Under the pieces are notes generated by a model. That model was not told the origin of the DNA. It worked only from the letters and a program-made list of their open reading frames with translations, and did not search any database. Below are positions 40,056 to 48,813 of a stretch of 64,000 bases of DNA, in pieces (position 1 is the first letter of the stretch; every line of letters begins with the position of its first letter). The stretch lies in assembly GCA_964013895.1 (NCBI GenBank), contig CAXGYF010000002.1, positions 35,316 through 99,315 on the forward strand, written 5' to 3'. Both the position numbers and the translations under genes were made by a program. The stretch comes from an uncultured Acidimicrobiaceae bacterium (lineage in GTDB: Bacteria; Actinomycetota; Acidimicrobiia; Acidimicrobiales; MedAcidi-G1).

Positions 40056-41696
40056 TCAAGAAGCTTCTATTGAGGGACCTTTAGCAACTTCTGCCAAAAA
40101 TTCATCATTGTTAGGAAAAGTTTTTAATCGGTCGATGAGTAGTTCTAGGCCTGCGCCTGAACCATTATCCCCATCTGAGGCCAAACCGTTTAAAACTCTT
40201 CTTAATTTCCATACTTGGTTCAATTGCTTACGATCAAATAAGAGTTCTTCATGACGGGTTGAAGAAGCGTTCACATCAATAGCGGGGTAAACGCGCCTTT
40301 CCGCTATTCTTCGATCCAAGCGAAGCTCCATGTTTCCTGTTCCTTTGAACTCTTCAAATATTACTTCATCCATCTTTGATCCTGTTTCCACAAGGGCCGT
40401 AGCTAAAATTGTTAAAGAGCCACCTTCTTCGACATTTCTAGCAGCACCGAAAAATTTCTTTGGTGGATATAAAGCTCCACTATCAACACCACCAGACATA
40501 ATTCGACCTGTTGCCGGGGCAGCCAAATTATATGCTCTCGCTAATCTTGTGATTCCGTCAAGAATGATCACTACATCTTCGCCGTATTCGACGAGTCTCC
40601 GTGCTCGCTCTATGGTGACCTCGGCAATAGCAGTGTGCTCTTCTGCTGGTCTATCAAAAGTCGATGCAGCAACTTCGCCATTCATAAGCCATCTTTTCAT
40701 GTCGGTGACCTCTTCAGGTCTTTCGTCAACCAACAAGACAATTAATTTAACCTCAGGATTATTTGTCTCTATTGATCTCGCTATCTGCTTCATGATTGTT
40801 GTCTTACCAGCTTTCGGAGGAGAGACAATAAGACCTCTTTGTCCCTTACCTATTGGGGATAAAAGGTCAACGATGCGGGCTGTCATATTAGTTGGGTCAG
40901 CGGCCAATTCTAGGTTTAATCTCTCGTCCGGAAAGAGTGGTGTTAGATCTTCGAAATGAGGTCGTTTCAGTGCATCTTCAGGTGGGTTCCCATTCACAGT
41001 ATCTAATCTCAATAAAGCAGGATTTTTTTCACTTCTATTTGCTGGTCTTGCCCCACCAACTAAATAGTCTCCGCGTCGGAGATCAAATTGCTTCACCTGT
41101 TTCACAGACACATAAGCATCTTGTTTCGAAGGGCGGAATCCTGTTGTTCGCAAAAAGCCATAACCTTCATTACGCAAATCTAGATAGCCCTCTATAGAAA
41201 CAGGTTCGCCATCCCAAGAATCATCTTGGCCTTCTGGTCCTCTCCCACGACGACGACGACGACGGTTTCCAGGTTCGGTGTATTCATTATTACGTTTTTC
41301 TCGATTATTGTTCGAACTTCTTGAATCAGAATCTTTACTTGACGATGCTCTTGCGCTACTTGCGTTATCAGAAGTTTCAGATTTAAGGGACTTGCTAGAA
41401 TCATCGCCCTTGCCTTCTTCTTCAGCCTCATCTTTGAGAGCTATCTCCCAATCAGCTAACGGTTCCTCTTCATCTTTTGTCGCTGTGTCTCCAACGTCTG
41501 GAGGTGTCGCTTTTTCCGATTCTTCGGTATTAGCACTAGAAGGCGTACCCCCAGAAGCCAAATCAAGGATCATCTCAACTATCTCCGCTTTTCTAGCACG
41601 TGAAGCAGGTTTCCCTCCTAAGGCCGTGGCGATAGTAATAAGTTCATCTCGCCCTTTGGCTTCCAATGAATCGCTTTGTAACTCAGTCGAGTCCAT
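40056..41696 (-). CDS. rho: Transcription termination factor Rho with N-terminal insertion
   Basis: [25 protein letters not shown] and FKGTGNME; acidic/Ser-rich plus RRRRRR insertion typical of Actinobacteria. Confidence 0.98.
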
Positions 41697-41947: not shown

Positions 41948-43096
41948 TTAATTGGCTAAAAGGGCTTTCATCAGCTCATGCCCCTTAATTAAAGGCTTGT
42001 CCGAAACTCCAATTTCAGTAAAAACACCACCATCTGAATCTTTTTCTGAATCAAACAGAAGATAAGGAACAGGATCAGGCGTATGTGTCCGAAGGGTTAA
42101 AGGTGTTGCATGATCTGGGAGCATCAACATTCTCCACGGTCCTAAATCCTCTAAGCCTGAAATCAAATCTTTCAAAATGCGGCTATCCCAATTTTCGAGC
42201 GATTCGACTTTCGCTTCGACATTTCCAGCATGGCCGGCTTCATCAGTAGCCTCAACATGGATGATGAATAAATCTAAACCATCTTCCAACTCTTTGAGAG
42301 CTATATCTCTCTTACCTTCGTAATCCGTGTCATACCAACCAGTTGCACCTGGGATATCACATACTTTCATATCAGCTAACTTTCCAATACCTCTGACAAG
42401 ATCAACTGCTGTTACTAAACCCCCATTAACACCATTAACACCAGCAAACGATGGGAATTGAGGTTGTGTTCCCTGCCCCCATAACCAAATTCCCGTTGCT
42501 TCCAGACTTGATGCAGCCAATATCTCCTCAGATGCGGCCATCAGATCAGTGATTTTTTGACCTGATTTACCAGACGGAAATACGACCGAATCACCTGTTA
42601 GATCATGTGGTGGCACACAAACCGCATCAAGAAAATCTATGGGGGCAATCATTGCGTTGCGAAAACTAACACCTGCTAGAAAGGAGATTCCTTCGTCCGG
42701 GTTTCCCAGTTCCCTATTTAACTGTTCGATGACCTTCGCTGCTTCATCCGAAGAGGGATTCCCGCCCGCGTAATCGACCATCACACCATCAACTACTTTT
42801 ACAAAATTGCACCTGAATGCAGTTTGGTCCGGTCTTAGTTTCACTCCAAGCGCAGCGACTTCGATCGGGGCGCGTCCTGTGTGATACTTGCTTGGGTCAT
42901 AACCAAAAATTGACATATTCCCGACATCACTTCCCGGTGGCATGCCACTGGGTATTACTTCTGCCCTACCCAGAGTGCTTCTAGCAGCAAGTGCATCGAG
43001 ATTTGGCATGTTGGCCACTTCTAATGGAGTCTTTCCGCCAAGTTCTGGGACCGGCAAATCAGCACAACCATCTGGTACACAAATAACATATTTCAT
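41948..43096 (-). CDS. ApgM-like cofactor-independent phosphoglycerate mutase family; proposed homoserine kinase
   Basis: DGCAD, PGSDVGN (phosphorylated Ser), HVEATDEAGH and DHATP metal ligands; located after hom-thrC. Confidence 0.88.
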   Translation of the reverse strand: MKYVICVPDGCADLPVPELGGKTPLEVANMPNLDALAARSTLGRAEVIPSGMPPGSDVGNMSIFGYDPSKYHTGRAPIEVAALGVKLRPDQTAFRCNFVKVVDGVMVDYAGGNPSSDEAAKVIEQLNRELGNPDEGISFLAGVSFRNAMIAPIDFLDAVCVPPHDLTGDSVVFPSGKSGQKITDLMAASEEILAASSLEATGIWLWGQGTQPQFPSFAGVNGVNGGLVTAVDLVRGIGKLADMKVCDIPGATGWYDTDYEGKRDIALKELEDGLDLFIIHVEATDEAGHAGNVEAKVESLENWDSRILKDLISGLEDLGPWRMLMLPDHATPLTLRTHTPDPVPYLLFDSEKDSDGGVFTEIGVSDKPLIKGHELMKALLAN

Positions 43097-43135
43097 ACTT
43101 TTCCTACCCTGACAAAAATCTCTATAATCTTCAAC

Positions 43136-44533
43136 TTATTTTTCGTTTATTCTGGAACAACTAATCACGTGGTCTTTCACGACTTCTAGATCATTCGGTA
43201 ACTGGGTAAAAAACTCAGGACGTTCATGTAAATCAGCAAGACGATCTGGAAGGGGCGGACACTGCCCTAATGCCCTTTCAACTGCTTTAGGAAATTTAGC
43301 TGGATGTGCCGTAGCCAAAGAAACAATCGGAATTCCAGGATCAATTTGTTTGTCTCGATGTAAACGGGCAGCTAAAACCCCTACAGCAGAATGCGGGTCG
43401 AGAATTATGTCTGAACTTTCTGCTTGTGAAGAAATACACTTAACTACTTCTTCATCATCAAAGCTGTATCCGGCCCAGCTATTGGAGAACTTGGCTTTTA
43501 TATCGGAACCCACTTTTGCATTTCCATCTAATCGAAACTTTTCAAAGAGATTCCTAACTTTTTCTCCATCTCTTTCGAATAGTTCGAAAATGAATCTTTC
43601 TAAATTAGATGAGATTTGGATGTCCATGCTCGGGGAAAGAGTAGGTATAACTTCGTTAATTTTCATTTCGGCTGAAGTAAAGAACTGTGTGAGAATGTCA
43701 TTTTTGTTACTCGCAACCAACAATTTGGGGATGTTCAAACCACAATTTCTCGCTGCGTGACCAGCAAATACATTTCCAAAATTTCCAGTAGGAACTGAGA
43801 AAATTACTGGCTTGTCGTGAGACCCTAATCTTTCGGATGCCACCACATAATAAACTATCTGCGCCATAACCCTTGCCCAGTTAATTGAATTCACTGCACC
43901 TAACTTCAATTTATTTCTATATTCAAGATCGTTAAACATCGCTTTTACCAAATCTTGACAATCGTCAAAAGTTCCTTCGATGGCAACGTTGTGAACGTTG
44001 AAAGAGTCGACTGTAGTCATCTGTCTCCGCTGCACCTCCGAAACTCTGTTTGAGGGGTGGAAAATAACTATGTCTAAATTCTCGCGATCTTTGCAAGCTT
44101 CAATTGCCGCAGAACCTGTATCCCCAGAAGTCGCTCCTACGATCGTGAGATGCTCTCCGCGACTATTTAACTCATAATCAAATAGACCTCCGACCAGTTG
44201 GAGAGCTATATCTTTGAAGGCAAGAGTGGGACCGTGGAATAATTCCATCAAGAAAATCTGCTCATCTAATTCAATTAAGGAAACAATTTCTTGGACATCG
44301 AAAGAGTCATATGCCTCATCTATAATTTTTTTTAACGTTGCGTGATTGAGGCTTTCCGACGTAAAAAGACTCATTACCGCGAGAGCTGTTTCTAAATAAT
44401 TTCCATTACCTGAGCCTTCTAATGAAGGCCATGCATCTGGAACATATAGACCTCCATCATCAGCGAGACCTGCCAGTAAAGCTTCACTGAAGGTTTTTTC
44501 TGGCGCTGAACCTCTTGTACTTACGTACTTCAC
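43136..44533 (-). CDS. thrC: Threonine synthase (long class II type)
   Basis: YVSTRG, ELFHGPTLAFKD (PLP Lys), ATSGDTG, NSINWAR and VPTGNFG; start GTG 44533. Confidence 0.96.
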   Translation of the reverse strand: MKYVSTRGSAPEKTFSEALLAGLADDGGLYVPDAWPSLEGSGNGNYLETALAVMSLFTSESLNHATLKKIIDEAYDSFDVQEIVSLIELDEQIFLMELFHGPTLAFKDIALQLVGGLFDYELNSRGEHLTIVGATSGDTGSAAIEACKDRENLDIVIFHPSNRVSEVQRRQMTTVDSFNVHNVAIEGTFDDCQDLVKAMFNDLEYRNKLKLGAVNSINWARVMAQIVYYVVASERLGSHDKPVIFSVPTGNFGNVFAGHAARNCGLNIPKLLVASNKNDILTQFFTSAEMKINEVIPTLSPSMDIQISSNLERFIFELFERDGEKVRNLFEKFRLDGNAKVGSDIKAKFSNSWAGYSFDDEEVVKCISSQAESSDIILDPHSAVGVLAARLHRDKQIDPGIPIVSLATAHPAKFPKAVERALGQCPPLPDRLADLHERPEFFTQLPNDLEVVKDHVISCSRINEK

Positions 44534-44546
44534 TCGGACCCCTGAC

Positions 44547-45851
44547 TCAATCGATACCGATGACCCTGAGAACAGTGCCCACACTTCTAACTGCGTCTAG
44601 TTCATTCAAAGCCTCAATTGCTGCTTGTAAATTACTTTCAAAAGCCTTGTGAGTAATAAAAATAAGCCTTGCCTCCTTATCGAGGCCCTCTTGTTCCATA
44701 GATCGTATCGAAACGTGACGTTCCCCAAGAGCAGTTGCTACTTGTGCCAGCACACCTGGCTGATCATCAACTTCTACTTCTAAGAAATACTGGCTTTCTA
44801 AATCTGCAATTGGCGAAATTTTCATGGGCTTGAATTCGCCAATTGCGGCACTATTAGATCTTTTTAAATTGCAGGAAGCGTCGATTAAGTCACCTAGAAC
44901 CGCTGATGCTGTAGGTGCGCCTCCGGCACCTCTGCCGTAAAACATCAACTCCCCCATAGCGTCACCTTCGACGAAAATAGCGTTAAAGCTCTCACGAACC
45001 GTGGCTAATGGGTGCGTTAACGGAACCATACTTGGATGCACGCGAACACATAAAGAATCTTCACCATTGATTTTTTGTCTTTCTGTAATCGCTAAAAGCT
45101 TTATGCAGTGATCTAAACGATTAGCAAAATCTATATCTTCAGGGGTTATCTTTGTTATTCCCTCAACGTGCACGTCACTGAGAGTTACCTGAGCGCCAAA
45201 TGCAAAGCTTGCAATTATTGCAGCTTTAGCAGCCGCGTCATGACCTTCAACATCGGCTGTTGGATCGCTTTCTGCGTAACCAAGCTTTTGTGCTTCGTCA
45301 AGGGCATCTGAATACGGCATATTCTCTTCGGTCATTTTCGTGAGAATGAAGTTTGTGGTCCCATTGACTATTCCCATTACTCGTGTAATTGGTTCCCCTG
45401 CTAATGATTCACGCAAAGGGCGAATAATGGGAATTGCAGCTGCAACAGCAGCTTCAAATAAAAGATCGACTTCAGATTGTTTTGCTAAAGAATACAATTC
45501 ATCTCCATGAACGGCTAAAAGTTCTTTATTTGCTGTAACTACCGGTTTTCCTAGTGTAAGAGCTTTGACGATTAGATCTTTAGAAGGGTTTATTCCTCCC
45601 ATTACTTCAACTACAACATCCACATCAGGACTTTCTATAACTGAATTCGAGTCATCGGTAAATAAGGAGGGGTCTATTGACACATCTCGCGATTGGGAAA
45701 CATTACGAACAGCCACCTTGACGACATCAAGTTTTAGTCCTGTGCGTTCGGCAATAGCGTCGTTCTGCTCGTCTATTAATTTACACAGAGAGGCTCCAAC
45801 TGTTCCACAACCTAGAAGCCCTATGTTGACATTAACTAATTCCATACCCAT
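44547..45851 (-). CDS. hom: Homoserine dehydrogenase with C-terminal ACT domain
   Basis: GCGTVG, VTANK, FEAAVAAAIP, NGTTNFIL, DAAAK and ACT DDQPGVLA. Confidence 0.96.
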   Translation of the reverse strand: MGMELVNVNIGLLGCGTVGASLCKLIDEQNDAIAERTGLKLDVVKVAVRNVSQSRDVSIDPSLFTDDSNSVIESPDVDVVVEVMGGINPSKDLIVKALTLGKPVVTANKELLAVHGDELYSLAKQSEVDLLFEAAVAAAIPIIRPLRESLAGEPITRVMGIVNGTTNFILTKMTEENMPYSDALDEAQKLGYAESDPTADVEGHDAAAKAAIIASFAFGAQVTLSDVHVEGITKITPEDIDFANRLDHCIKLLAITERQKINGEDSLCVRVHPSMVPLTHPLATVRESFNAIFVEGDAMGELMFYGRGAGGAPTASAVLGDLIDASCNLKRSNSAAIGEFKPMKISPIADLESQYFLEVEVDDQPGVLAQVATALGERHVSIRSMEQEGLDKEARLIFITHKAFESNLQAAIEALNELDAVRSVGTVLRVIGID

Positions 45852-45904: not shown

Positions 45905-47176
45905 TTAAATGTCACGTCTTGTTAGATCTTCGTAGGATTCTCTAGCTACAACCAATCGTGAAGATCCACCAGATACGAAAACCACTGCTGGTCTGAGCAT
46001 TTGATTATAATTCGAACCCATTGAATGACCGTAAGCACCTGTTACGGGAGTAGCGAGAATGTCTCCTACTGATAGATCTTCAGGCACCCATGCTTCTTTA
46101 ATGAGAAAGTCTCCAGATTCACAATGTTTACCTACAAGACGTACCGAATTTCGCCTTTCTGCTTGGTTAGAACGCGGTAAAAAAGTCTCGTACCCAGACC
46201 CGTAAAGTGCGGGTCTAGGATTGTCACTCATTCCGCCATCGACCGAAACATAGGTTCTATGGTCGGGAACTTCTTTTATTGTTCCTACTGTATAAAGCGT
46301 TACGGCAGCACTAGCGACTATGGAACGACCTGGCTCTGCACCAACTGAAGATTTAACTCCAGCTTCTGCGCAAGCATCAAAAATAGCGTCTGCCCACTCT
46401 TGTATGGAAGGAGCAGACTCTCCTTCGACGTAAGGGACTCCTAATCCTCCCCCCACGACTAATTCGGGAAAGTCATAAGGGGCCGCAAATTCTGCTAATA
46501 CCCCTACTGCTTTCGCAAATGGGCGAACATCAAAAACCTGACTGCCTATATGGGCATGTAGACCCAATAACTCTATGTGCTTAGAATTTCGAGCTCGCTG
46601 AACAGCTTCTTCAGCTACACCCGAACTAACTGTGAATCCAAATTTTGAATCTTCTTGTCCTGTGGAAACGAATTCATGAGTATGCGCTTCAACTCCGGGG
46701 GTAACTCTTAAAAGAACTTTGCTTGACGTATTAAGATTTGCACACAATTCCTCTAAGCGGTCTAGTTCGTCGAAAGAATCTACAACTATACGCCCCACGC
46801 CCTCTTTGAGGGCCATGTTAAGTTCTTCGAGACTCTTGTTATTTCCGTGCATTACTATTCGCTCACCGGGAACACCGGCTTTTCGAGCTATATACAGTTC
46901 CCCTCCGGTTGCAACGTCAAGGTTCATACCTTCTTGATAAGCAAGTTTCGCCATCTCTATGCATAGAAAAGCTTTTGTGGCATATGCAACATTGCCATCG
47001 AAAGCTTGTACCGCTTCGCGGCATCTTGACCGCAGATGGTCTTCGTCATAAACGAAAAGTGGCGTACCAAATTCATCCGCAAGTTCTACTAAGTTGCAAC
47101 CCCCTATAAGAGTGTGTTCCTCTGACGAAATATCTGCGGTATCTGGTAACAAATTACTTTGTATAGGACCTGCCAT
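45905..47176 (-). CDS. lysA: Diaminopimelate decarboxylase
   Basis: GTPLFVYD, YATKAF, HAHIGSQ, EPGRS, GKHCESGD and GAYG. Confidence 0.96.
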   Translation of the reverse strand: MAGPIQSNLLPDTADISSEEHTLIGGCNLVELADEFGTPLFVYDEDHLRSRCREAVQAFDGNVAYATKAFLCIEMAKLAYQEGMNLDVATGGELYIARKAGVPGERIVMHGNNKSLEELNMALKEGVGRIVVDSFDELDRLEELCANLNTSSKVLLRVTPGVEAHTHEFVSTGQEDSKFGFTVSSGVAEEAVQRARNSKHIELLGLHAHIGSQVFDVRPFAKAVGVLAEFAAPYDFPELVVGGGLGVPYVEGESAPSIQEWADAIFDACAEAGVKSSVGAEPGRSIVASAAVTLYTVGTIKEVPDHRTYVSVDGGMSDNPRPALYGSGYETFLPRSNQAERRNSVRLVGKHCESGDFLIKEAWVPEDLSVGDILATPVTGAYGHSMGSNYNQMLRPAVVFVSGGSSRLVVARESYEDLTRRDI

Positions 47177-48813
47177 TAGCCTTCTCCGTCTTCAATAATT
47201 TCATCACGCCACATCTCTTCAGGAGCGCTAACACCAAGTAGGTCCATTCCTATCTCAAGTCCAATTAGCACACCTCTCATTAACAGAAAACGGGCTTGTG
47301 CTAGAGATGGTTCTACATCATCACCAAGAATACGACAATCATGGTAGAAGCCGTGTAGATCTGCGGCGAATTCCCGCAACCAAGTGGTTATTTGATGCGG
47401 GGCCAGTTCACGGCCAGCTCTCTCAACTACATCTGGTAACTCATGTAGAGATCGAATTAAAACTAGTTCGCGACTGTGCTGTAGTTGCGATAAGTCAACT
47501 TCAGAAAGAGGCAACGGTATAAAACCAATTTGATCAGCTTTTTTCATCATTGAACGGATTCGTGCGTATGCATATTGAACGTAAAAAATCGGATTTTCAT
47601 TCACTCTTTTTGAAACTAAATCCAAATCAAATGTTTGAGTCGTGTCGATAGATTGAAGTAGATAAGTAAAACGTGCAGCATCAGGACCCACTTCCTTAAC
47701 TACTTCAGAAAGTTCAACGATTTCACCTGTTCTTTTTGAAAGTTTTACTTCTTTTCCGGAACGTTGAAGATTCACCATTTGAGTCACTTCTACTTCTAGC
47801 CTTTCAGGTTCGTACCCTAAGGATTCGATAGCTGCTTTCATACGCGTTATATAACCGTGATGATCAGCACCCCAAACATTGATTAGACGTTCGGCTCTAA
47901 CCAACTTGTCAAGATGATATGCAACATCAGGCAATAGATAGGTGTACTCGCCATCTGATTTGACTAATACTCGGTCTTTGTCGTCACCATATTCTGTGCT
48001 TTTTAACCAAATAGCTCCATCTTTTTCATAAGAAGCATTGACTTTCTCGAGCATAGAGAGGGTCTGTTCAATTGAACCCGACTCAACCATCGAGGTTTCA
48101 CTAAACCATGAATCGAATTCTATGTTCAGATCACTAAGAACTTCTTTATGAGCAGATAGGGCTCGCTGCATACCCCAGCTAAGAGGGTCTGTATCGACAG
48201 GTATCTCGGTAGCCCATTCCTTTATGTAACCTCCGTGATATCCACCCTCAGGAATGTCCTTGCCTGAAGCGCAAGCCTCTAGAGAAGCGGCAAATAGATT
48301 CATCTGTGTGCCTCGGTCATTAACGTAAAACTCTCTAGCTACGGAATAGCCTGACCTTTCTAAGATTCTGGCAATAGAGTCCCCGTAACACGCACCTCTT
48401 CCGTGTCCGGCATGTAAGGGTCCCGTTGGGTTTGCACTGACAAACTCAACGATGACTGTACTATTAGCTCCTTCTTCCGACCGTGCCCAATCTCGTGAAC
48501 CAGCATTTACTGCTTCCAATAAGACGTCGTAAAGCCAAGTTTTGTTTAAATAAAAATTTATAAATCCGGGTCCAGCTACCTCTAATCTAGACACATGCTC
48601 GGATGCGAATCCTTCTAGGGTGCTTACCAACTGAGTGGCTAAATCTCGTGGATTGGATCCTGCCTTTTTCGCTAAAACCAAGCCGACATTGGTCGACCAA
48701 TCCCCGTGTTCAATATTTGCAGGTCTTTCTAAATGAATCTCAGTCGACGATTCAAGACCCAAAATAGACAGCGCTTCTCTTATCAGATTCTTAAGACTTT
48801 CGCGAACGTCCAT
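47176..48813 (-). CDS. argS: Arginine--tRNA ligase
   Basis: HGDWSTN, GPGFIN, EFVSANPTGPLHAGHGRG, YVQYAYAR and GVSAPEEM. Confidence 0.97.
   Translation of the reverse strand: MDVRESLKNLIREALSILGLESSTEIHLERPANIEHGDWSTNVGLVLAKKAGSNPRDLATQLVSTLEGFASEHVSRLEVAGPGFINFYLNKTWLYDVLLEAVNAGSRDWARSEEGANSTVIVEFVSANPTGPLHAGHGRGACYGDSIARILERSGYSVAREFYVNDRGTQMNLFAASLEACASGKDIPEGGYHGGYIKEWATEIPVDTDPLSWGMQRALSAHKEVLSDLNIEFDSWFSETSMVESGSIEQTLSMLEKVNASYEKDGAIWLKSTEYGDDKDRVLVKSDGEYTYLLPDVAYHLDKLVRAERLINVWGADHHGYITRMKAAIESLGYEPERLEVEVTQMVNLQRSGKEVKLSKRTGEIVELSEVVKEVGPDAARFTYLLQSIDTTQTFDLDLVSKRVNENPIFYVQYAYARIRSMMKKADQIGFIPLPLSEVDLSQLQHSRELVLIRSLHELPDVVERAGRELAPHQITTWLREFAADLHGFYHDCRILGDDVEPSLAQARFLLMRGVLIGLEIGMDLLGVSAPEEMWRDEIIEDGEG

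What the first reader, a model, noticed from the sequence alone, without database searches (positions are those of the whole stretch)
41948..43096. ApgM-like metalloenzyme occupies the thrB slot: candidate non-canonical homoserine kinase
Seen: the order is argS-lysA-hom-thrC-[ApgM-like]-rho, with an intact alkaline-phosphatase-superfamily site (DGxxD, PGSD Ser, DEAGH, DH) and no GHMP or ThrB gene in the window. Known: in most Actinobacteria thrB sits exactly between thrC and rho, and from memory TIGR02535 (proposed homoserine kinase) describes ApgM-like genes in thr operons of genomes lacking thrB. I do not know of a biochemical validation. Inference: an in-place non-orthologous replacement that phosphorylates homoserine via a phosphoserine intermediate, possibly using a phospho-donor other than ATP.
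Basis: partly seen in the sequence, partly recalled or inferred. Interest (0 to 1): 0.72.

Follow-up and report, generated by a model that had tools for sequence, protein, structure and literature searches.

The report
HomK substitute for homoserine kinase
The gene between threonine synthase and rho is an intact member of HomK, the phosphoglycerate-mutase-like enzyme that has already been shown in other organisms to stand in for homoserine kinase.

Summary
The order argS-lysA-hom-thrC-[382-aa ApgM-family gene]-rho lies on the minus strand, and DGCAD, PGSD, DEAGH and DH are all present.

The assembly (92% complete, Acidimicrobiales) has no ThrB, ThrB-alt or ThrH. Its only GHMP kinase is ispE, and it has a separate glycolytic mutase, gpmA.

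The protein belongs to the HomK/ThrB2/TIGR02535 clade:
- It carries the HomK-specific Glu (E282, motif HVEATDEAGH) where solved archaeal mutases and an Acidimicrobiia paralog have Lys.
- It branches inside the Glu-type clade.
- It is under strong purifying selection (dN/dS 0.04-0.06).
- It is present in 29 of 31 genomes of its family, none of which has thrB.
- In 201 sampled Actinomycetota, 46 have only HomK, 144 only thrB, 1 both and 10 neither.

A 2026 GapMind preprint reports that BT2402 and DET_RS08350 rescue E. coli thrB::kan. No purified enzyme or identified donor is reported in the papers I could search.

"In-place replacement" is not shown in this order. Relatives that carry thrB keep it elsewhere and have thrC directly followed by rho.

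The phosphate donor remains unknown.

This scan has flagged the same pattern in many other genomes.

Verdict: a new member of a known kind, of low interest, and mislabelled in public records.

The parts
41948..43096 (-). homK-like gene (382 aa): ApgM-family, Glu-type, predicted homoserine phosphotransferase
   Evidence: ORF. Family scores. Catalytic set intact. Placed in the Glu-type clade. AF2 model pLDDT 94.8, best PDB match 2zkt with TM 0.78.
42929..42931 (-). codon of Ser56 (PGSD), the predicted phospho-accepting nucleophile
   Evidence: Translation. Same residue number as S56 of BT2402. Ser in 29/29 class homologs.
42230..42259 (-). HVEATDEAGH motif: E282 (HomK specificity residue; Lys in mutases), metal ligands D285 and H289, and E286
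   Evidence: 3kd8 NIKATDVAGH, 2zkt HFKPTDAAGH; position 282 is the only column that is Glu in the HomK-like set and Lys in the paralog set.
42110..42115 (-). D328-H329 metal ligands
42083..42085 (-). H338 metal ligand
43058..43072 (-). DGCAD (D9 metal ligand, D13)
43097..43135 (-). 39-nt thrC-homK spacer with an AGGA ribosome-binding site; no room for a separate promoter or terminator, so co-transcription is inferred
43136..44584 (-). thrC, long-form threonine synthase, which consumes O-phosphohomoserine
   Evidence: TIGR00260 270.3 bits, PF14821, PF00291, PF24857
44547..45851 (-). hom, homoserine dehydrogenase with an ACT domain, which makes the substrate
   Evidence: NF004976 548 bits
45905..47176 (-). 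lysA
   Evidence: TIGR01048 451.6 bits
47176..48813 (-). argS
   Evidence: TIGR00456 424.2 bits
40056..41696 (-). rho (546 aa, with an N-terminal insertion), downstream neighbour after a 251-nt gap
   Evidence: TIGR00767 561.4 bits; sequence

Best explanation
The gene encodes a HomK-type homoserine phosphotransferase. It supplies O-phosphohomoserine to the ThrC encoded just upstream, in a genome that has no ThrB.

Mechanism, inferred from homology to cofactor-independent phosphoglycerate mutases: a two-metal site (D9, S56, D328 and H329 for one ion; D285, H289 and H338 for the other) activates Ser56. Ser56 takes a phosphoryl group from a donor to form a phospho-enzyme and then passes it to the gamma-hydroxyl of L-homoserine (ping-pong). 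Glu282, which replaces the Lys that mutases use for their anionic substrate, is proposed to bind the amino group of homoserine.

Shown here: gene order, an intact catalytic set, the Glu/Lys switch, clade membership, complementary occurrence with thrB, and purifying selection. Shown elsewhere for two family members: rescue of E. coli thrB::kan. Inferred: activity of this particular protein, the ping-pong chemistry, and the donor, which is unknown.
For: (1) Context: hom-thrC-X-rho, with a 39-nt spacer and an RBS.
(2) No thrB (TIGR00191), thrB_alt (TIGR00938) or thrH (TIGR02137) in the assembly. The only GHMP kinase is ispE. A dPGM gpmA scoring 312.9 bits covers glycolysis.
(3) Residues D9, S56, E282, D285, H289, D328, H329 and H338 are all present. 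The same set is found in 29/29 Acidimicrobiia homologs and 76/80 named homologs from Archaea and Bacteria.
(4) Column 282 is Glu in 99% of 110 HomK-like sequences. It is Lys in 10/10 NF003160-type paralogs and in the solved mutases 3kd8 and 2zkt. It is the only Glu-to-Lys column. The numbering D9/S56/E299/D346/H347 that the preprint gives for BT2402 is reproduced exactly at these columns by two family members. A Bacteroidota homolog has the same 47-residue Glu-to-Asp spacing.
(5) Tree: the Glu-type clade splits from the Lys-type clade at 100% SH-aLRT. The window protein sits inside a monophyletic Acidimicrobiia Glu-type clade.
(6) 38 of 80 diverse homologs have hom and/or thrC within 6 kb on the same strand.
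(7) Occurrence. Family: HomK-like in 29/31, thrB in 0/31. Class: 36 of 40 carriers lack thrB, and 76 of 111 non-carriers have it. Phylum: 46 HomK only, 144 thrB only, 1 both, 10 neither.
(8) dN/dS is 0.04-0.06 against orthologs of the same genus.
(9) Literature: BT2402 is needed for threonine prototrophy, and BT2402 and DET_RS08350 rescue E. coli thrB::kan. Complementary thrB/thrB2 profiles were reported in gut genomes.
Against: The TIGR02535 score (416.4) is below the trusted cut-off of 446.3, and the protein also passes the broader ApgM subfamily model TIGR00306. No member of the Acidimicrobiia clade has been tested, and neither BT2402 nor DET_RS08350 could be fetched for a direct alignment. 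The E282=E299 mapping therefore rests on numbering and on the Glu/Lys pattern. The assembly is 92% complete, so the absence of thrB in this one genome is not absolute, although 31 family genomes agree. A few genomes carry both enzymes (four in one Acidimicrobiia family, and G356 with the two genes adjacent), so the two may not be fully equivalent. An earlier attempt to complement with BT2402 failed (2019 preprint). The positive result reported later was weak growth (OD rise 0.14-0.25 in 47 h).
Confidence: 0.85

Rival explanations
1. It is what public records call it: a cofactor-independent phosphoglycerate mutase acting in glycolysis or gluconeogenesis, and it sits beside thrC by chance.
For: It passes TIGR00306 (401.9 against a cut-off of 320) and almost passes NF003242 'cofactor-independent phosphoglycerate mutase'. 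The fold and catalytic residues are those of ApgM. Relatives are named PGM in NCBI and JGI records.
Against: The genome already has gpmA. The Lys found at this position in both solved archaeal mutases (3kd8, 2zkt) is Glu here. NF003242 and TIGR02535 score in parallel on the same Glu-type clade, so the PGM name is only a label on the HomK clade. The association with hom/thrC across phyla and the complementary occurrence with thrB would have no explanation. Genomes with a true ApgM-type paralog keep it as a separate Lys-type gene.
Confidence: 0.05
2. It is a Glu-type phosphotransferase with another amino-alcohol acceptor. One example is L-threonine, giving threonine O-3-phosphate for cobalamin synthesis, as the preprint speculates for cobD-linked homologs. 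Another is L-serine. The real homoserine kinase would then be an unidentified enzyme.
For: The preprint notes Glu-bearing homologs next to cobD. Ten of 201 sampled Actinomycetota genomes have neither thrB nor HomK, and neither do about 35 of 151 Acidimicrobiia genomes, so unknown homoserine kinases do exist. Some genomes hold both ThrB and HomK.
Against: Here the gene is joined to hom-thrC, not to cobD. It falls in the clade whose members are linked to hom/thrC. All 31 family genomes lack thrB and nearly all keep this gene.
Confidence: 0.05
3. It is a HomK descendant that no longer catalyses the reaction (a regulatory or scaffold relic), as this scan has reported for some Omnitrophota, Nitrospinota and Kiritimatiellia copies.
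For: Earlier scan notes describe active-site-dead HomK homologs in threonine operons. The window protein has a long terminal branch (0.49).
Against: The nucleophile, all seven metal ligands and the specificity Glu are present. dN/dS is 0.04-0.06. The AF2 model is confident throughout.
Confidence: 0.02

Closest known systems
HomK / ThrB2 / TIGR02535 'proposed homoserine kinase' (BT2402 of Bacteroides thetaiotaomicron; DET_RS08350 of Dehalococcoides mccartyi)
   Same: ApgM-like two-domain fold. D9 and S56 at identical positions. Glu at the specificity position. Metal ligands present. Linked to hom/thrC. Found in genomes without thrB and with another mutase. Same Glu-type clade.
   Different: It belongs to a separate Acidimicrobiia subclade, about 40% identical to other members, and is 15-20 residues shorter. 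It scores below the TIGR02535 trusted cut-off, as the validated DET_RS08350 reportedly also does. It lies between thrC and rho rather than in an asd-hom/thrB2/thrC operon. It is untested.
Archaeal cofactor-independent phosphoglycerate mutase ApgM (PH0037, PDB 2zkt; Thermoplasma acidophilum, PDB 3kd8/3idd)
   Same: Fold (TM 0.78 to 2zkt), Ser nucleophile, two-metal site and overall length. Sequence E-value 1e-45.
   Different: Lys to Glu at position 282 and Val/Ala to Glu at 286 (HVEATDEAGH against NIKATDVAGH and HFKPTDAAGH). About 26% identity. Different gene context.
NF003160 (PRK04135)-type ApgM paralog of Acidimicrobiia
   Same: Same superfamily and length. It co-exists with the HomK-like gene in at least 9 sampled genomes.
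   Different: Lys at column 282 and Gly-Glu in place of Gly-His at 288-289. Only 26-31% identical, and separated from the HomK-like clade at 100% support in the tree. Not found in the window's genome.
ThrB (GHMP-kinase homoserine kinase, TIGR00191)
   Same: Predicted to make the same product (O-phosphohomoserine), and occupies the same operon position in Mycobacterium-type hom-thrC-thrB-rho clusters (textbook knowledge, not tested here).
   Different: Unrelated fold and ATP-dependent. Not found in this genome or in its family.
ThrH (phosphoserine:homoserine phosphotransferase of Pseudomonas aeruginosa, TIGR02137)
   Same: A precedent for ATP-independent phosphorylation of homoserine by group transfer (cited).
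   Different: HAD-superfamily fold, not homologous. No match in this genome.

Membership tests
HomK / ThrB2 / TIGR02535 | ApgM-type architecture (PF01676 Metalloenzyme with inserted PF10143 PhosphMutase domain) | tested here: met
   PF10143 143 bits and PF01676 131 bits. AF2 model pLDDT 94.8, best match 2zkt with TM 0.78.
HomK / ThrB2 / TIGR02535 | Catalytic Ser and the metal-binding residues conserved | tested here: met
   D9, S56, D285, H289, D328, H329 and H338 are present. D9 and S56 have the same numbers as in BT2402.
HomK / ThrB2 / TIGR02535 | Glu at the specificity position (E299 of BT2402) where mutases have Lys | tested here: met
   E282. Lys is found there in 3kd8, 2zkt and 10 paralogs. 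It is the only Glu/Lys switch column. The mapping to E299 is by numbering, because BT2402 itself was not obtained.
HomK / ThrB2 / TIGR02535 | Score at or above the TIGR02535 trusted cut-off (446.3 bits) | tested here: not met
   416.4 bits. This is higher than its TIGR00306 score (401.9). Only 4 of 40 Acidimicrobiia carriers pass the cut-off. The preprint reports that the validated DET_RS08350 is also classed as TIGR00306 rather than TIGR02535. The cut-off is therefore conservative rather than defining.
HomK / ThrB2 / TIGR02535 | Encoded with threonine-pathway genes (hom, thrC) | tested here: met
   hom-thrC-X, with a 39-nt spacer. The same arrangement is seen in 6 other genomes of the order.
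HomK / ThrB2 / TIGR02535 | Genome lacks ThrB and has another phosphoglycerate mutase | tested here: met
   Family-wide, thrB is in 0/31 genomes.
HomK / ThrB2 / TIGR02535 | Branches within the Glu-type clade, not with Lys-type mutases | tested here: met
   Quick maximum-likelihood tree of 120 sequences; the split has 100% SH-aLRT support.
HomK / ThrB2 / TIGR02535 | Forms O-phosphohomoserine / rescues a thrB mutant | not testable with these tools
   Known only for BT2402 and DET_RS08350.
Cofactor-independent phosphoglycerate mutase, archaeal type (ApgM, TIGR00306) | Score above the subfamily cut-off | tested here: met
   401.9 against a cut-off of 320. The model is a subfamily model that Glu-type proteins also pass.
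Cofactor-independent phosphoglycerate mutase, archaeal type (ApgM, TIGR00306) | Lys at the substrate-binding position three residues before the metal-binding Asp | tested here: not met
   Glu282.
Cofactor-independent phosphoglycerate mutase, archaeal type (ApgM, TIGR00306) | Needed as the genome's phosphoglycerate mutase | tested here: not met
   gpmA is present at 312.9 bits.

The most novel reading that the evidence does not exclude
In this marine Acidimicrobiales family, HomK may take its phosphate from 2- or 3-phosphoglycerate (or another glycolytic phospho-compound) rather than from phosphoserine, the donor the GapMind authors favour. Glycerate would then be recycled by glycerate kinase, and threonine synthesis would draw directly on lower glycolysis without ATP at this step.

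The basis is as follows. No canonical SerC passes the cut-off in any of 31 family genomes. No SerC-like gene at all was detected in this assembly, and only weak SerB-like hits were found. A PF02595 glycerate kinase is present here and in 39 of 40 Acidimicrobiia carriers, against 63 of 111 non-carriers.

These counts are not corrected for shared ancestry, and the acidic Glu282 argues against an anionic donor.
Probability: 0.2. Interest if true: 0.5.

Novelty: new member of a known kind. Interest (0 to 1): 0.2.

Why it matters
The main value is for annotation. Relatives of this protein carry mutase names in NCBI and JGI records. NCBIfam holds two models for the same clade under different names: NF003242 'cofactor-independent phosphoglycerate mutase' and TIGR02535 'proposed homoserine kinase'. 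The Acidimicrobiia subclade falls just under both cut-offs.

Pipelines may therefore score these abundant marine and freshwater Actinomycetota as lacking homoserine kinase, and so as threonine auxotrophs. About a quarter of sampled Actinomycetota genomes use HomK instead of ThrB.

The motif H-[VI]-E-A-x-D-E-x-G-H is a simple discriminator. The one open scientific question is the phosphate donor, and this lineage, with its unusual serine-pathway gene content, could be a useful test case.

Tried and rejected
- **Fetching BT2402 or DET_RS08350 for a direct alignment.** Cluster look-ups of 10 representatives, an alignment-based scan of genome contigs and a scan seeded with a Bacteroidota homolog returned neither. 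Identity to the validated proteins is therefore not given.
- **In-place replacement.** I fetched 11 kb around thrB in five Acidimicrobiia genomes and found no hom, thrC or rho nearby. This part of the reading was rejected for this lineage.
- **Upstream neighbours of homK in other Acidimicrobiia orders.** The open frames gave no informative Pfam hits apart from one short-chain dehydrogenase.
- **Phosphoserine as donor, tested through gene content.** The result is suggestive but unresolved. SerC was not detected, yet a SerA-like gene is present.
- **PhpG-like phosphonate transferase.** Rejected: NF038358 scores 160.6 against a cut-off of 545.
- **Rfam scan of the window.** It found only one tRNA and no leader RNA for this operon.

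Full report
**What is there.** The minus strand of the window carries argS (47176-48813), lysA (45905-47176), hom (44547-45851), thrC (43136-44584), a 382-aa ORF (41948-43096) and rho (40056-41696). The ORF starts 39 nt after the thrC stop and has AGGA 7 nt before its ATG. A 251-nt gap separates it from rho. It matches PF10143 (PhosphMutase) and PF01676 (Metalloenzyme).

**Family scores.** The protein scores 422.5 bits on NF003242 'cofactor-independent phosphoglycerate mutase' (cut-off 426). It scores 416.4 on TIGR02535 'proposed homoserine kinase' (cut-off 446.3) and 401.9 on the ApgM subfamily model TIGR00306 (cut-off 320). On other Glu-type proteins, NF003242 and TIGR02535 rise and fall together. 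On the Lys-type paralogs both drop to about 170 bits, while NF003160 reaches 470-517.

**The rest of the genome.** The assembly has 1.73 Mb in 54 contigs and is 92% complete. The source names of its closest homologs place it in Acidimicrobiales.
- It has no match to ThrB (TIGR00191), the protein-kinase-fold ThrB (TIGR00938) or ThrH (TIGR02137).
- Its only GHMP kinase is ispE, beside ksgA.
- It has a cofactor-dependent mutase gpmA (312.9 bits) and no gpmI.
- The ApgM-like gene is single-copy.

**What the literature says.** TIGR02535 was proposed by TIGRFAMs curators as a homoserine kinase substitute. Ashniev et al. 2022 named it ThrB2 and showed complementary occurrence with thrB in gut genomes (PMC9026213). 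BT2402 mutants of B. thetaiotaomicron need threonine, and a first complementation attempt failed (preprint 10.1101/741918). The GapMind 2026 preprint (10.1101/2024.10.14.618325) reports several further points:
- BT2402 and the divergent DET_RS08350 of Dehalococcoides rescue E. coli thrB::kan.
- The family is named HomK.
- A specificity residue is identified: E299 in BT2402, and Lys in mutases.
- Phosphoglycerate is argued to be an unlikely donor.
- Phosphoserine is suggested as the donor.

Searches for ThrB2 and HomK found no report of a purified enzyme or an identified donor.

**Residue tests.** D9 and S56 have the same residue numbers as in BT2402. Solved archaeal mutases read NIKATDVAGH (3kd8) and HFKPTDAAGH (2zkt), whereas the window protein reads HVEATDEAGH.

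I aligned 110 HomK-like sequences: the window protein, 29 from Acidimicrobiia genomes and 80 named loci from Archaea and Bacteria. I compared them with 10 Lys-type paralogs from Acidimicrobiia. Position 282 is Glu in 99% of the first set and Lys in all of the second, and it is the only such column. Position 286 is also acidic only in the first set.

I could not obtain BT2402 itself. Two family representatives, however, number these columns exactly D9/S56/E299/D346/H347. A Bacteroidota homolog has E297/D344/H345, with the same spacing. I therefore take E282 to be the equivalent of E299. The full set D9, S56, E282, D285, H289, D328, H329, H338 is intact here, unlike the dead-site HomK homologs this scan has reported elsewhere.

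**Structure.** An AlphaFold2 model built on a 27-sequence alignment has mean pLDDT 94.8 and pTM 0.91. Its best PDB matches are PH0037 (2zkt, TM 0.78) and the Thermoplasma mutase. Bacterial iPGMs, phosphopentomutases and alkaline phosphatases follow. This confirms the fold only.

**Phylogeny and selection.** In a quick maximum-likelihood tree of 120 sequences, the Glu-type and Lys-type proteins are separated with 100% SH-aLRT support. All 30 Acidimicrobiia Glu-type proteins form one clade (100%). The window protein groups with those of a neighbouring family of the same order (98%). Its terminal branch is long, at 0.49. Against orthologs of the same genus, dN/dS is 0.04-0.06.

**Distribution.**
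- Window's family: 29 of 31 genomes have the gene and none has thrB.
- Acidimicrobiia (151 genomes): 40 carry it. Of those, 36 lack a credible thrB and 4, all in one family, have both. Among the 111 non-carriers, 76 have thrB. About 35 genomes have neither, and most of these are 1-Mb genomes of one genus.
- Actinomycetota (201 genomes): 46 have only HomK, 144 only thrB, 1 has both as adjacent genes, and 10 have neither.
- Named homologs from many phyla: 38 of 80 have hom and/or thrC within 6 kb on the same strand.

**Was it an in-place swap?** Within the order, 7 of 21 genomes with the long-form thrC have lysA-hom-thrC-homK-rho. In at least 6 others thrC is followed directly by rho. Two of those genomes carry a diverged thrB at another locus. 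The 11 kb around thrB in five genomes contains no hom, thrC or rho. The slot is therefore filled or empty. The resemblance to the mycobacterial hom-thrC-thrB-rho order is positional and is not evidence of a direct exchange in this lineage.

**Donor.** This remains open.
- The genome has a PF02595 glycerate kinase. So do 39 of 40 Acidimicrobiia carriers, against 63 of 111 non-carriers.
- The canonical actinobacterial SerC (TIGR01366) was not detected in this assembly. It passes the cut-off in none of 31 family genomes but in 37 of 40 class carriers.
- The site where relatives keep serC is contiguous in this assembly and holds no serC.
- The weak class-V aminotransferase hits seen in the family have no counterpart here.
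- SerB gives only weak HAD hits.
- A 403-aa SerA-like gene is present.

These facts lean slightly against phosphoserine and leave phosphoglycerate possible in this lineage. They are confounded by shared ancestry and by the assembly's incompleteness. In addition, an acidic residue at position 282 does not favour an anionic donor.

**Verdict.** This is a real, intact and selectively maintained HomK-type gene in a subclade, untested to my knowledge, that sits under the curated cut-offs. The kind of system is known and has genetic support, and this scan has noted it many times. It is of low interest, except as an annotation fix and as a possible test case for the donor question.

Noticed in passing
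L038-L047 (e.g. G025:C1:110139-111260; G012:C13:268912-270030): Ten sampled Acidimicrobiia genomes hold a second ApgM-family gene, and nine of them also have the HomK-like gene. It is an NF003160 member with Lys at the specificity column and Gly-Glu in place of the metal-binding Gly-His (HHKYTDSAGE). It may be a true mutase with an altered metal site. It is not present in the window's genome.
   Followed up: partly
proteins P0142, P0146, P0160, P0171, P0175, P0179, P0183, P0248: These proteins of about 1000-1100 aa have an intact HomK-like N-terminal domain followed by 600-700 residues with no Pfam match. The one with a source name is from a Clostridia MAG. P0270 (622 aa) fuses the HomK-like domain to a signal peptidase S26 domain.
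   Followed up: partly
class sample, family code f15 / genus g28 (26 genomes of about 1 Mb): These streamlined Acidimicrobiia genomes show neither a credible thrB nor a HomK-like gene. They are either threonine auxotrophs or use a third, unknown homoserine kinase.
   Followed up: no
G356:C4:24017-26027; also G015, G067, G111, G133: A few Actinomycetota carry both thrB and an intact Glu-type HomK. In G356 the two genes are adjacent. This hints that the two enzymes are not always redundant.
   Followed up: no
whole assembly G000; syntenic site C16:8430-10100: No SerC-like gene of any type was detected in this genome, and no canonical SerC passes the cut-off in 31 genomes of its family, although the rest of the order has one. 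How this family makes serine is unclear. A SerA-like gene remains at C7:48257-49441.
   Followed up: partly
NCBIfam models NF003242 and TIGR02535: The two models score in parallel on the same Glu-type clade but carry conflicting names: 'cofactor-independent phosphoglycerate mutase' (equivalog) and 'proposed homoserine kinase'. This may explain the mutase labels seen in public records.
   Followed up: yes
window 44547-44584: The listed GTG start of thrC overlaps the end of hom by 38 nt. The true thrC start may lie further downstream, since relatives align only from residue 7-20 onward.
   Followed up: no
L151 (G178:C34:90307-91722): The thrC ortholog of one genome of the same order has a single in-frame TGA. 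It may be a sequencing error, a pseudogene or a recoding event.
   Followed up: no
window 40056-41696: Rho is 546 aa, against a 415-position model. The extra segment lies between the N-terminal part and the RNA-binding domain, and its length varies among relatives.
   Followed up: no
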